IMG/VR virus record: IMGVR_UViG_2541047712_000002
DNA length: 64,000 nt
Origin: a virus
Lineage: Duplodnaviria > Heunggongvirae > Uroviricota > Caudoviricetes
Reading direction: 5' to 3' (one strand)
Every line of letters starts with the position of its first letter. The first letter of the stretch is position 1. Below, piece after piece: positions 57,001 to 60,000 of this stretch. The position numbers are program-made.

Positions 57001-60000
57001 GTCTTGCCGGTTCTGGTGCGTCAACCTCACAAAGCCATTTCTGCTTAGTAACCAAACACATTAAATAGGTAATGACTCACTTATTCATTTTAGCTATAGT
57101 CACGACACTTACTCACTTGAAAGGACTCAATATGGGAAACAAACGTAAACAGGCGCGTCGCGCAGCTCGTCAGGCAGTGAAGTCAAAGCCACGCATCCAC
57201 GGCTACGAAATTGACACAATCATCGTTAATGAACAGCAGTTGCACGAGGTGAAGTGATGAAAGTCGTTATCTACGGACGAGATAACTGCTCATACTGCAA
57301 ACGTGCGGTCGAGCTGGCGAAGCAACTAAAGGGACATGGCTACGGTGATTATGAGTACATCGACATCACTACTGCCGGTATCGATAAGGAAAAACTTAGC
57401 GAAATTATTGGTAAACCGGTAGAGACTATCCCCCAGGTATTGATCGATGGCCAACCGATTGGCGGATACACAGAACTTGCAGCTTACATAAATTTGTTAT
57501 GACTAGTATGGCCGCTAGCCACACCATCCTTGATTAAAAAAAACACAATCGTTATAAGGAGCAATCTTCATTGTTGATAAGACGACTTAACTATACTTAT
57601 CCTATACCTCAGGTGTTATGTTATAACATTTGATACTTGGGGAAGATTATGTTACTTAAAGCATTAAGGATTGGATTGATCGCAGGCATCTTTTGTACGT
57701 GTACAACGTATGTCGCTGGAAAAAACAGTAGATGTTAAATTCCCGTCTGAAAAAGATAAAGTAGCATACTCGGACGTCATAAAAGGTTTTGACTATAAAA
57801 CTTATAAATTTCGCGCGAAGAAGGGACAACACCTTCAGATATTACTATCAAATGAATGGAGTGAACATATCCATATCTCTTTGGGCCAAGCATCGAAGAT
57901 TAGATTGTTCTTGATAGAAGCTCACCTTGTCTAAATGAGCAAGCGAAATATATGCTTCATGAATCAGGCGTATATTAATTACGTGTAAGACAAACACGAA
58001 ATAATGCAAGGGAAGATTAAAAGTAAAAATACAATATTGAACGTAAAATACACTAAGAGTTAGTTATACAGAAAATTCAACTAAGCCGGGCAGTACTGAC
58101 GTTGTGTCAACCTTCCATTTTCATGGAAGGTTTTTTTTTGCTTGCGATATAACAATAGCAAACACTCATAATCTAAAAGTATTGAGTCTACATAAAACTC
58201 ACGCCTTAACCTCATGACAATCAGGCAAAAATAACAATAGAAACTATTTAAAATTTTATTTTTTTTATATTTAATCTAAACATTATTTTATCTTAACCCT
58301 TTGTTTTTTAAGAAATTCATGCAGATCACAAATATTTGAAAAACAATATTATTACCTGGCTTGTGTGTTTTTTATTGATTTTAAACACCACGATTATTGT
58401 CTTTGTCAGAATAATAGTCTAGGTTATTTGGCTTGTGCAGATCTTTTATCTATAATCGTTGTTTGATGGGTTTATATTTTTCAGTAAACTTCAAAAAAAA
58501 ACACGAATGTCTAACTAGGTTATATTCAGTTCATTTTTGTCAAATTATTAAATTATCACCTGGCTAAACTGATAACATTTACCTACTCAGGTGGCTGAAA
58601 TGAGGATTTCGTTAAATGAAAAAATAAAGGGAGAACGGTTTAATACGCCGGGAAACATGTCAAGGGAGCACTTTAACTTACTAATTGAGCTATCACCCAT
58701 AAGTAGCGAGAAGGTAAGATTAGCTTTATACGATTTTTTCGTTGACGGAGTAACACGTAAGGAAGCGTGCACCAGACACAATGTTTCACAAGGATATTTT
58801 TCTATTAGTGTAAGAAAATTCATTCAGGTTAATGATAGAGTAACAAAGGCTGTTAAATATTACTTGCCGAAATACTTAATTGTATAGCTCTGTTTTTTGA
58901 TAATGGAGGTGGTTAAACAATAAAAACCGTAATATAAAACACATTCAGTTCTTAATATTTTATTTTTCCATTTAATTTTATTTAAAGATAGGTTAGATAT
59001 GAAAAAGCTGACTCTTATTGCAACGTTAATGGCATCTGCTATGTCATTCTCATCTCACGCTGCTACAACATCAGCAAGCGTGAATATTACCGGCTCGATC
59101 GTTCCATCTGCATGTGCAATTAGCGCCAGTGCAAATGGAGGTACTATTGACTTTGGGAAAATCCTTTCATCAGAACTTGGTGAGCAGGGTGTTACACGTA
59201 AGGCAAAGAACGATACTCTTACTATTACGTGTGATAAAGATACTACGGCCGTAGTAAAAGTTAGTGGAAGCAATGGTGTAGATGGCAACACTTATAATTC
59301 AGATAAAGACTTCGTTAAAATTGCTGTGCAATTTACCGACGTAAATGTCACTGGCGGTAATGCTACAAATAAATTCCTCGTATCTAACGCAGCATCTGTA
59401 GATTTAGATAATCTGACGGCAGCAGGTTTTACCACCGCAGCAGGAAATAAACCGTTATTCCCGTTCAATGGAAACTATCTCGCCGTTGCTGATACAAACA
59501 ATAGCGTTGGTACATTTAAGACATTGACTGCAAATTATAGCGTCAGCGCGGTAGTGCAAAACGCTTCTGCTAAACGAGCTCTTACCCAAGGTGAACAAAC
59601 CTTCGGTGGCGCAGTTACATTCGAACTGAACTATCTATAACCCATAATTAATAAACAGTAACGGAGTAACCTCCGTTACTGTTATAAAAAACATGATCAA
59701 AAGAATATTTCTACCTATATTAATGAGCATTCCATGTTCAGTATATGCTTTAGGAATGCAACCTGAAACAACCGTTTTAATATTTAACGAAGAGAAGAAT
59801 GAAGCTTCTATTTCTGTTAAGAATACAAACAGTGTGCCAAGCCTACTTCAAACAAAAATTGTGGATATAGGGGAAGCTGAAAATGTTCTAGTATTATCTT
59901 CACCATCAATAGTTAAAATAGAACCAGGAGAGTCTCAAATAGTAAGATTCTTTTTGAAAAAGAATTCTGATTTTGATACTCAGATACTTAAGAGAGTAAG

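What the first reader, a model, noticed from the sequence alone, without database searches (positions are those of the whole stretch)
57935..58590. Long AT-rich leader with homopolymeric A and T tracts upstream of the PapB-type regulator and fimbrial operon
About 650 bp of very AT-rich sequence with runs of 9-10 T (about 58128-58140 and 58255-58266) and 9 A (about 58490-58500) precedes the regulator gene. Homopolymeric tracts in fimbrial promoter regions are classic slipped-strand phase-variation switches and H-NS-bound regulatory regions.
Basis: partly seen in the sequence, partly recalled or inferred. Interest (0 to 1): 0.4.

Follow-up and report, generated by a model that had tools for sequence, protein, structure and literature searches.

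The report
AT-rich fimbrial promoter region, mutable tracts
The flagged stretch is an ordinary composite: the tail of a dead gene, its transcription terminator, and the AT-rich promoter region of a fimbrial regulator carried on an E. coli phage-plasmid. Its three short A/T runs do change by one base between isolates, but none sits where that would make a classic on/off switch.

Summary
Window 57935-58590 is 28.7% GC, the lowest in the 64-kb window, and holds T9 (58131-58139), T8 (58259-58266; not 9-10) and A9 (58493-58501), upstream of a confirmed PapB-family gene (58600-58887).

It is not one "leader":
- 57649-58056 is a multiply broken pliG-like pseudogene.
- The T9 run is the U-tail of that pseudogene's intrinsic terminator (hairpin 58109-58132, -12.9 kcal/mol, z -4.6).
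- Only 58140-58599 is the regulatory region of the papB-like gene.

Five diverged relatives share TTG(A/C)TG-16 nt-TA(A/C)ACT (58463-58468 / 58485-58490). This puts the inferred transcription start inside the A run.

Across 28 near-identical E. coli copies:
- the A run is 8/9/10 (4/22/2);
- the T8 run is 7/8/9 (3/23/1);
- the terminator T run is 8/9/10 (1/25/1).

These changes recur on identical SNP haplotypes, while three A8 controls never vary. So the runs are mutable, but only ±1 around a dominant length, and none lies in a -35/-10 spacer.

The Pap signature (two GATC boxes 102 bp apart plus PapI) is absent. H-NS binding is plausible from AT-richness only.

Verdict: an ordinary xenogeneic fimbrial promoter region, and a classic switch is unlikely. 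The context is the more notable part: fimbrial cargo on an SSU5-like phage-plasmid.

The parts
57649..58056 (+). pliG-like pseudogene (inhibitor of g-type lysozyme): signal peptide, two frameshifts and several in-frame stops
   Evidence: The ORF 57710-57934 matches PDB PliG chains 4dy5/4dxz/4dy3 (E = 7e-10, residues 3-57 of 111). Three-frame translations show the N-terminal signal peptide, and the C-terminal half in another frame with internal stops up to the ancestral stop at 58054-58056. The C-terminal assignment rests on my recollection of the E. coli PliG sequence. The lesions are the same in all copies examined.
58109..58139 (+). Intrinsic terminator of the pseudogene: 10-bp stem, 4-nt loop, with the T9 run (58131-58139) as its U-tail
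   Evidence: Found by the terminator scan. The RNA fold is -12.9 kcal/mol, z = -4.64, with 0 of 200 shuffles folding as well. T-run length: T9 in 25 of 27 copies, T8 in L009, T10 in L008.
58140..58599 (+). Upstream regulatory region plus 5' UTR of the papB-like gene, 27.4% GC
   Evidence: Composition. No Pfam-recognisable ORF. No Rfam match at E <= 1.
58259..58266 (.). T8 run, ~200 nt upstream of the conserved promoter; polymorphic (T7 x3, T8 x23, T9 x1)
   Evidence: MAFFT places the T7 run of L018, L024 and L026 about 10 columns upstream of the window's T8, in a poorly conserved stretch, so homology of the two runs is not shown.
58324..58327 (.). GATC site without a Pap-type box context
58407..58421 (.). 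Match to the Lrp consensus YAGHAWATTWTDCTR (1 mismatch on the - strand)
   Evidence: No chance expectation was computed for this match. It does not appear to be conserved in L020.
58428..58456 (+). Best consensus sigma-70 match, TTGGCT-17-TATAAT, with GATC 58440-58443 (caGATCttttatcta) in its spacer
   Evidence: The hexamers are degraded in L020 and absent in L018, L024 and L026. The GATC context resembles the distal GATC box of the Pap-type relatives L025 and L036.
58463..58490 (+). Conserved promoter candidate: -35 TTGATG (58463-58468), 16-nt spacer, -10 TAAACT (58485-58490)
   Evidence: All five diverged relatives keep TTG(A/C)TG-16-TA(A/C)ACT. Mean pairwise identity is 92% for the hexamers and 67% for the spacer. 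The pattern occurs once in the 64 kb, counting both strands.
58493..58501 (+). A9 run starting 2 nt after the -10 hexamer; the inferred transcription start (~58496-58498) lies inside it; polymorphic (A8 x4, A9 x22, A10 x2)
   Evidence: At the homologous position the relatives carry A8 (L020), A7 (L024), AAACGA (L018) and AAACAA (L026).
58557..58594 (+). Possible weak stem CACCUGG/CCAGGUG that would pair with the Shine-Dalgarno sequence AGGUGG (58589-58594)
   Evidence: The stem appears in the centroid folds of the window and of L020, where a C-to-U change is tolerated as a G-U pair. The z-scores are only -0.5 and -1.7, so this is a lead rather than a finding.
58600..58887 (+). PapB/FocB-family regulator gene (95 aa, ATG at 58600)
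   Evidence: Pfam PapB, E = 4e-29. RefSeq annotation WP_032140378.1. FocB 3m8j, E = 1e-12.
58999..63265 (+). Chaperone-usher fimbrial operon: subunit 58999-59640, chaperone 59693-60361, usher about 60372-62735, subunit-like gene 62750-63265

Best explanation
The flagged 656 nt are a composite. From left to right:
1. The decayed 3' part of a pliG-like pseudogene.
2. That gene's Rho-independent terminator, whose U-tail is the first T run.
3. About 460 nt of very AT-rich regulatory DNA, acquired horizontally together with a PapB-type regulator and a chaperone-usher fimbrial operon.

The whole 5.9-kb, 34%-GC block (57501-63397) is cargo on an SSU5-like E. coli phage-plasmid.

Inferred mechanism: transcription of the regulator starts from a sigma-70 promoter, TTGATG-16-TAAACT (58463-58490), with the start site inside the A9 run, giving a 5' UTR of about 100 nt. 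The AT-rich upstream DNA, including the T8 run, serves as a landing pad for nucleoid and global regulators (H-NS-type silencing, perhaps Lrp) and for the PapB-like protein itself, as in other PapB-family operons.

The three homopolymers are mutational hot spots for ±1 slippage simply because they are 8-9 nt long. Their length changes are expected to be neutral or at most to tune expression, not to switch it.

Shown: the anatomy, the terminator, the pseudogene, promoter conservation and tract polymorphism. Inferred: the start site, H-NS/Lrp/PapB binding, and the lack of an expression effect.
For: - Pseudogene: PDB PliG match and broken frames.
- Terminator: scan hit and fold at z = -4.64.
- Cargo boundaries: homology to phage Cyrano stops at 57500 and resumes at 63398. 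The backbone is 98-99% identical to Escherichia phages CMS-2020a and Cyrano and 77.6% to SSU5.
- Composition: GC is 27-29% in the region, 34% in the operon and 45.7% in the backbone.
- Promoter: TTG(A/C)TG-16-TA(A/C)ACT is kept in five relatives whose PapB-like proteins are 45-81% identical. Hexamer identity is 92% against 67% for the spacer, and the pattern is unique in the window.
- Tract lengths in up to 28 copies stay within ±1 of a dominant mode. Variation is length-dependent: all three 9-mers vary (A9, the terminator T9, and C9 at 63315), whereas three A8 controls do not (0 of 25, 0 of 28 and 0 of 11 copies).
- In Bordetella, true fim promoter tracts range over 10-15 and 13-18 nt among strains (PMC1891110).
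- PapB-family proteins bind AT-rich DNA near promoters, and PapB site 2 overlaps the papBA start (PMC12388093, PMC11316696).
Against: - No transcription start, protein binding or expression data exist for this locus.
- The conserved hexamers are each only 4/6 matches to consensus. A better consensus match (TTGGCT-17-TATAAT, 58428-58456) lies just upstream in the E. coli element.
- Tract changes recur on identical SNP haplotypes. There are about 12 tract-allele departures from the modal lengths (at least 8 separate events, allowing for shared ancestry of L012/L013 and possible assembly error in L008 and L009) against 15 SNP sites in 2.7 kb. The tracts are therefore the fastest-evolving characters here, which is also what a contingency locus would show.
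- The T8 run varied in 4 of 27 copies, while the non-coding A8 at 57536 varied in 0 of 25.
- No match to the H-NS high-affinity motif TCGATAAATT was found (0 hits with up to 2 mismatches against 1.65 expected).
Confidence: 0.62

Rival explanations
1. Slipped-strand rheostat or switch. ±1 changes in the A run (at the start site or in the 5' UTR) or in the T8 run (helical phasing of upstream-bound regulators relative to the promoter) heritably change papB-like expression, and hence fimbrial expression. For the A run this could work through altered reiterative transcription at initiation.
For: - The tracts are polymorphic among near-identical copies and recur on the same SNP haplotypes.
- Coding and non-coding A8 controls are invariant, which argues against pure sequencing error.
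- An A-rich run directly after the -10 hexamer is kept as A9, A8 and A7 in three of five relatives.
- Reiterative initiation needs only a homopolymer of at least 3 nt at the start site (PMC8812562).
- Repeats upstream of a core promoter can drive phase variation, as in meningococcal nadA (PMC2791445).
- A 1-nt change in the Bordetella fimX promoter tract changed transcript level 3.8-fold (PMC1891110).
Against: - Neither run lies in a -35/-10 spacer.
- The modal length dominates (79-85% of copies) and the range is only ±1.
- The same ±1 variation is seen in a terminator tail and in a C9 run.
- The A run is interrupted in L018 and L026.
- Runs of 8-9 A/T in mismatch-repair-proficient E. coli mutate far more slowly than recognised contingency tracts (my own knowledge, not tested here).
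- Some variants come from a metagenome contig and from long-read assemblies (L008, L012, L013).
Confidence: 0.15
2. A Pap-like epigenetic switch. Dam methylation of GATC 58324 and 58440 competes with Lrp binding to give ON/OFF inheritance, with the PapB-like protein as local regulator.
For: - There are two GATC sites in the regulatory region. The one at 58440 (caGATCttttatcta) closely matches the distal GATC box of the Pap-type relatives L025 (cGATCtttttatcta) and L036.
- GATC 58440 lies about 57 nt upstream of the inferred start.
- A 1-mismatch Lrp consensus match lies at 58407-58421.
- The regulator is PapB-family.
- Both GATC sites are invariant in the aligned E. coli copies of the regulatory region (27; L022 starts downstream of them).
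Against: - The defining signature is two GATC boxes 102 bp apart plus a PapI-like protein (PMC2909390).
- Here the spacing is 116 bp and only one site has the box context.
- No PapI/FaeA-like ORF is detectable in the cargo.
- GATC 58440 is GATT in L020, and both sites are absent in L018, L024 and L026.
- GATC density (2 in 665 nt) is no higher than the window average of 3.6 per kb.
- The canonical 102/103-bp pair is easily recognised when present, as in L025 and L036.
Confidence: 0.08
3. The tract-length differences are sequencing or assembly errors, not biology.
For: - L008 is a metagenome scaffold with +1 in two tracts and two further deletions.
- L009 has -1 in two tracts.
- L012 and L013 (T7) are complete plasmid records, which I presume are long-read or hybrid assemblies; the records shown do not state the technology.
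- Homopolymers are the classic error site (my own knowledge).
Against: - A8 runs at 57536, 60220 and 56317 show no length change in any of the 11 to 28 copies that cover each of them, L008, L009, L012 and L013 included where they cover the site.
- Variants also occur in several draft assemblies of isolates (L003, L007, L016, L027, L029, L032).
- The technology of each assembly could not be checked with these tools.
Confidence: 0.15
4. An invertible promoter element. The 14-nt imperfect inverted repeat GTGTTTTTTATTGA (58365-58378) / TCAAAAAAAAACAC (58491-58504) flanks both promoter candidates, and the segment would be flipped by the nearby tyrosine recombinase.
For: The inverted repeat is 93% complementary over 14 nt and brackets 112 nt containing both promoter candidates. 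A 367-aa tyrosine recombinase gene lies just downstream of the operon.
Against: - All 27 copies that span the segment have the same orientation.
- 58 inverted pairs were reported in 1.7 kb of this AT-rich DNA, so the repeat is at chance level.
- The recombinase belongs to the phage backbone and is present in phage Cyrano, which lacks the fimbrial cargo.
Confidence: 0.02

Closest known systems
pap/sfa/foc/pef-type regulatory regions (PapB + PapI + Lrp + Dam)
   Same: A PapB/FocB-family regulator is the first gene of the operon. It has a long AT-rich upstream region. One GATC box resembles the Pap-type distal box, and there is one Lrp-consensus match.
   Different: There is no PapI-like gene. 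The GATC sites are 116 bp apart rather than 102 bp, and only one has the box context. The sites are not conserved in the closest relatives. The signature is defined in PMC2909390.
Pix and K99 (fan) operons: PapB-type regulators without a PapI partner
   Same: A PapB-type regulator acts alone at the 5' end of a chaperone-usher operon. Pix has no PapI-type protein. The fan operon is reported as not phase-variable and not Dam-dependent (PMC12388093).
   Different: The protein is less than 60% identical to every other PapB-type gene matched in the plasmid collection (E <= 1e-8). The fimbrial genes are nearest to NCBIfam PRK15301-15304 and PRK09918, not to the Pap or K99 types. No experimental data exist.
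Bordetella fim2/fim3/fimX promoter C-tracts (slipped-strand phase variation)
   Same: A homopolymer in a fimbrial promoter region whose length differs between isolates.
   Different: The Bordetella tracts are 10-18 nt, range widely between strains, and sit within the promoter element, where tract length sets transcription (PMC1891110). Here the runs are 8-9 nt, vary by ±1, and lie outside the -35/-10 spacer.
Reiterative transcription initiation at homopolymeric start sites (pyrBI, codBA, pyrG)
   Same: A homopolymer of at least 3 nt lies at the inferred start site (requirement stated in PMC8812562).
   Different: The start site is only inferred. No link to nucleotide pools or to fimbrial regulation is known.
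Yersinia pestis pMT1 caf1 operon (my own knowledge)
   Same: A chaperone-usher surface-fibre operon with its own regulator carried as cargo on a member of the SSU5/pHCM2 supergroup. pMT1's membership of that group is stated in bioRxiv 10.1101/2025.09.12.675607.
   Different: Caf1R is an AraC-type regulator, and the cargo and its insertion site are different. This comparison concerns the context, not the flagged tracts.

Membership tests
Slipped-strand (simple-sequence-repeat) promoter phase-variation switch | Repeat length polymorphic among closely related isolates | tested here: met
   A run: 8/9/10 in 4/22/2 of 28 copies. T8 run: 7/8/9 in 3/23/1 of 27 copies. The changes recur on identical SNP haplotypes. 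They are only ±1 around a dominant mode.
Slipped-strand (simple-sequence-repeat) promoter phase-variation switch | Repeat placed where its length sets promoter geometry (the -35/-10 spacer, or between an activator site and the core promoter) or the reading frame | tested here: not met
   The T9 run is a terminator tail. The A9 run starts 2 nt after the conserved -10 hexamer. The T8 run lies ~200 nt upstream, so an effect through helical phasing cannot be excluded. All of this depends on a predicted promoter, not a mapped one.
Slipped-strand (simple-sequence-repeat) promoter phase-variation switch | Expression state follows repeat length; high-frequency reversible switching within a clone | not testable with these tools
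   Needs reporter fusions and deep sequencing of clonal populations.
Pap-type Dam/Lrp/PapI epigenetic switch | Two GATC boxes at 102-bp spacing | tested here: not met
   GATC sites at 58324 and 58440 are 116 bp apart, and only 58440 has a box-like context. The relatives L025 and L036 show the canonical 102 and 103 bp.
Pap-type Dam/Lrp/PapI epigenetic switch | PapI-like co-regulator encoded in the cluster | tested here: not met
   No Pfam hit at E <= 1 for any small ORF flanking the operon within the cargo. None is annotated in RefSeq.
Pap-type Dam/Lrp/PapI epigenetic switch | PapB-family local regulator | tested here: met
   PF03333, E = 4e-29. FocB 3m8j, E = 1e-12.
Pap-type Dam/Lrp/PapI epigenetic switch | Clusters of Lrp sites overlapping the GATC sites | tested here: inconclusive
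   There is one consensus match at 58407-58421, not overlapping a GATC site. No binding data exist.
Rho-independent (intrinsic) terminator (T9 run) | Stable G+C-containing hairpin immediately followed by a U run, downstream of a gene on the same strand | tested here: met
   A 10-bp stem with 4 G-C pairs and a 4-nt loop, then T9. The fold is -12.9 kcal/mol at z = -4.64. It lies 53 nt after the ancestral stop of the pliG-like pseudogene.
Invertible promoter switch (fimS-like) | Both orientations found among copies; dedicated recombinase | tested here: not met
   None of the 27 copies that span the segment is inverted. The recombinase is a backbone gene, also present in phage Cyrano.
H-NS-silenced xenogeneic promoter region | AT content well above the host or backbone | tested here: met
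   27-29% GC against 45.7% for the backbone, the lowest in the window.
H-NS-silenced xenogeneic promoter region | High-affinity nucleation motif, or demonstrated H-NS occupancy | tested here: not met
   There are 0 matches to TCGATAAATT with up to 2 mismatches in 58140-58599, against 1.65 expected. Occupancy itself cannot be tested here.
Reiterative transcription initiation | Homopolymer of at least 3 nt at the transcription start site | tested here: inconclusive
   Met only if the conserved TTGATG-16-TAAACT is the active promoter. The start site has not been mapped.

The most novel reading that the evidence does not exclude
The A run that begins 2 nt after a conserved -10 hexamer is kept because transcription starts inside it. 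Heritable ±1 slippage in the DNA (A8/A9/A10 alleles, arising repeatedly) together with reiterative transcription at initiation would set the output of the PapB-like regulator. That would give a phage-plasmid a mutable 'volume control' for the fimbriae it confers on its lysogen.
Probability: 0.1. Interest if true: 0.55.

Novelty: new member of a known kind. Interest (0 to 1): 0.22.

Why it matters
The region as flagged matters little. AT-rich promoter regions with short A/T runs are usual for horizontally acquired fimbrial operons, and one of the three runs is simply a terminator tail.

Two things are of modest value:
- It is a worked example showing that "the tract varies between isolates" is not enough to call a phase-variation switch. 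Position relative to the promoter and matched control tracts are also needed.
- The context is unusual. A complete, low-GC chaperone-usher operon with a PapB-type regulator lacking the Pap signature rides as cargo on an SSU5-like phage-plasmid found in human and wastewater E. coli. That would make adhesin acquisition a lysogenic-conversion trait. I found no paper in the held library linking phage-plasmids with chaperone-usher fimbriae.

Tried and rejected
- Relatives in reference genomes: two scans of GTDB representative genomes with the PapB-like protein and with an alignment found nothing. The 5.8-billion-protein search gave only two clusters, at 99% and 81% identity. Footprinting therefore rests on five relatives, from IMG/VR and metagenomes.
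- Phage collection: no nucleotide match to the fimbrial region.
- Rfam: nothing but tRNAs in 54-60 kb at E <= 1.
- Structured leader or RNA thermometer: the predicted 5' UTR folds no better than shuffles (z = -0.02). The stem that would pair with the Shine-Dalgarno sequence is weak (z = -0.5 and -1.7).
- Invertible element: rejected. No copy is inverted, the recombinase is a backbone gene, and the inverted repeat is at chance level.
- H-NS motif scan: no hit.
- CRP site: only a half-site by eye, not pursued.
- The 44-aa ORF 58433-58567 spanning the A run: no family match, and it is frameshifted by the natural A8 and A10 alleles, so it is not coding.
- Literature: no description of this operon or of fimbriae on SSU5-like elements was found. 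One review (PMC452554) is not held.
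Full report
**Observation**

I read 57500-59300 directly. The flagged interval is 28.7% GC against 44.4% for the whole window, and the 460-nt windows with the lowest GC in all 64 kb lie at 57.9-58.2 kb.

The homopolymers are:
- T9 at 58131-58139.
- T8 at 58259-58266.
- A9 at 58493-58501.

Three runs of 8 or more compare with 0.52 expected in dinucleotide-preserving shuffles (P = 0.017). The window has only eight such runs, seven of them between 56.3 and 63.3 kb.

The gene that follows (ATG 58600, stop 58887) is a PapB-family regulator (PF03333, E = 4e-29; FocB structure 3m8j, E = 1e-12). It is followed by a fimbrial subunit, a PapD-type chaperone, an usher and a second subunit-like gene.

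**Where this is**

The same DNA, at 99.8% identity or more, occurs on ~113-kb non-mobilizable E. coli plasmids from humans and wastewater. It was not found on any chromosome.

The backbone is an SSU5-like phage-plasmid. The helicase-primase-ligase segment is 98-99% identical to Escherichia phages CMS-2020a and Cyrano and 77.6% identical to Salmonella phage SSU5. Those phages lack the fimbrial region.

Against phage Cyrano, homology stops at 57500, the end of the glutaredoxin gene. It resumes at 63398, just before the integrase. So 57501-63397 is a 5.9-kb cargo block at 34% GC, and the integrase belongs to the backbone.

**Anatomy of the flagged interval**

The ORF 57710-57934 matches solved PliG proteins (inhibitor of g-type lysozyme) over residues 3-57 of 111 (E = 7e-10). 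Three-frame translation shows a signal peptide from ATG 57649, a frameshift, the PliG N-half, and a second frameshift. The C-half follows, with several in-frame stops, down to the ancestral stop at 58054-58056. This is a pseudogene.

Fifty-three nucleotides later lies a 10-bp hairpin (58109-58132) followed by the T9 run. It folds at -12.9 kcal/mol, z = -4.64, and none of 200 shuffles fold as well. The first "tract" is therefore the U-tail of an intrinsic terminator for the dead gene.

Only 58140-58599 (27.4% GC) can be regulatory DNA for the papB-like gene.

**Promoter inference**

The consensus scan's best hit is TTGGCT-17-TATAAT at 58428-58456.

Relatives of this regulator are rare. None was found in GTDB representative genomes, and only two protein clusters turned up. 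I did recover five diverged upstream regions:
- L020 (81% protein identity).
- L018 (54%, an IMG/VR phage contig with the same ligase-tRNA neighbourhood).
- L024 (56%).
- L026 (45%, frameshifted).
- L025 (51%).

In the alignment of the first four with the window, the consensus-like promoter is not conserved. TTG(A/C)TG-16 nt-TA(A/C)ACT is conserved, at window 58463-58468 and 58485-58490. The spacing is a fixed 16 nt, hexamer identity is 92% against 67% for the spacer, and the pattern occurs once in the 64 kb.

I take this as the most likely promoter. This is an inference, because no start site has been mapped.

The A run starts 2 nt after this -10 hexamer, so the expected start (~58496-58498) lies inside it. 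At the same position the relatives carry A8 (L020), A7 (L024), AAACGA (L018) and AAACAA (L026). An A-rich start region is conserved; a pure homopolymer is not.

**Tract polymorphism**

Exact-protein look-ups and BLAST gave up to 27 further copies.

| Tract | Copies | Lengths seen |
|---|---|---|
| A9 at 58493 | 28 | A8 x4 (L003, L007, L009, L016), A9 x22, A10 x2 (L008, L032) |
| T8 at 58259 | 27 | T7 x3 (L012, L013, L029), T8 x23, T9 x1 (L027) |
| Terminator T9 at 58131 | 27 | T8 x1 (L009), T9 x25, T10 x1 (L008) |
| Control A8 at 57536 (non-coding) | 25 | no variation |
| Control A8 at 60220 (coding) | 28 | no variation |
| Control A8 at 56317 (coding) | 11 | no variation |
| C9 at 63315 | 12 | C10 x2 |

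- Apart from a 35-bp deletion in one metagenome scaffold and IS insertions further upstream, every indel in the intergenic region is in one of the three tracts.
- Tract alleles differ within identical SNP haplotypes, so the changes are recurrent.
- The pattern is length-dependent and not specific to regulatory positions, because the terminator tail varies too. It stays within ±1 of a dominant mode.
- Bordetella fim2 and fim3 promoter tracts, by contrast, span 10-15 and 13-18 nt among strains (PMC1891110).

**Alternative mechanisms**

*Pap-type epigenetic switch.* Its signature is two GATC boxes 102 bp apart plus a PapI-like protein (PMC2909390). The distant relatives L025 and L036 show exactly that, with cGATCtttttatct and taaaGATCg boxes 102 and 103 bp apart.

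The window has GATC at 58324 and 58440, which are 116 bp apart. Only 58440 (caGATCttttatcta) resembles a box. L020 has GATT there, and L018, L024 and L026 have neither site. No PapI-like ORF exists in the cargo.

The region looks like a descendant of a Pap-type region that has lost the switch, as described for Pix, which has no PapI, and for fan, which is not phase-variable (PMC12388093).

*Invertible promoter.* A 14-nt imperfect inverted repeat flanks the promoters. But no copy is inverted, the repeat is at chance level for this composition, and the recombinase is a backbone gene.

*H-NS.* The AT-richness makes silencing plausible. I found no match to the high-affinity motif and cannot test occupancy.

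*Lrp.* One good consensus match lies at 58407-58421. It is not evidently conserved.

*5' UTR.* It shows no significant structure.

**Verdict**

The finding is a real compositional feature with an ordinary explanation: pseudogene tail, terminator, and the AT-rich promoter region of xenogeneic fimbrial cargo.

The slipped-strand-switch reading is not excluded for the A9 and T8 runs as a modest expression modifier. It lacks the positional logic of the classic cases and is wrong for the T9 run.

The most interesting residue is the possibility that transcription starts inside a mutable A run (reiterative initiation needs a homopolymer of at least 3 nt, PMC8812562). Beyond that, the context itself is notable: a fimbrial operon on an SSU5-like phage-plasmid.

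Noticed in passing
window 57501-63397: A 5.9-kb, 34%-GC cargo block sits between the glutaredoxin and integrase genes of an SSU5-like E. coli phage-plasmid. It holds a pliG pseudogene, a PapB-type regulator and a four-gene chaperone-usher operon, and it replaces ~0.9 kb present in phage Cyrano. No paper in the held library links phage-plasmids with chaperone-usher fimbriae.
   Followed up: partly
window 63315-63323: A C9 run at the right edge of the cargo, ~200 nt upstream of the integrase gene. It is C10 in 2 of 12 copies (L005, L007). Its function is unknown.
   Followed up: partly
window 59654-59683: A perfect 13-bp hairpin (loop GTAA) lies immediately after the major-subunit gene and before the chaperone gene. 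There is no T-tail on the + strand. It may act as an mRNA 3' stabiliser or attenuator, as described after papA (my own knowledge).
   Followed up: no
window 34437, 57536, 58493: Three of the five A runs of 8 or more in the window are followed by CAC (AAAAAAAACAC). I did not test whether this is a shared motif or coincidence.
   Followed up: no
window ~55069-55201 (L011 2570-2702): RefSeq annotates a 133-nt 'tRNA-OTHER' between tRNA-Tyr and tRNA-Ser. ARAGORN and Rfam did not call it.
   Followed up: no
L036 (CP057768.1, pRHB15-C23_2), 373 nt upstream of its papB-type gene at 1450: A T17 homopolymer lies in the regulatory region of a K88-like operon that also has canonical GATC boxes 103 bp apart. 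It is a better candidate for tract-length effects than the window's runs.
   Followed up: no
L010, L034 and L008 (window equivalents 57564, 57841, 58525-58559 and 62993-63120): IS (transposase) insertions lie upstream of the regulatory region in two copies, one of them on a 296-kb contig. One metagenome scaffold has a 35-bp deletion in the predicted 5' UTR and a further deletion in the last fimbrial gene. The cargo is decaying in some lineages.
   Followed up: partly
L018 / L021 (IMGVR_UViG_3300011597_000022): A diverged SSU5-like viral contig carries a PapB-like gene (54% identity) at the equivalent position, after the ligase and tRNA-Asn. Fimbrial-type cargo at this site may therefore be recurrent. 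The contig ends right after the gene.
   Followed up: partly
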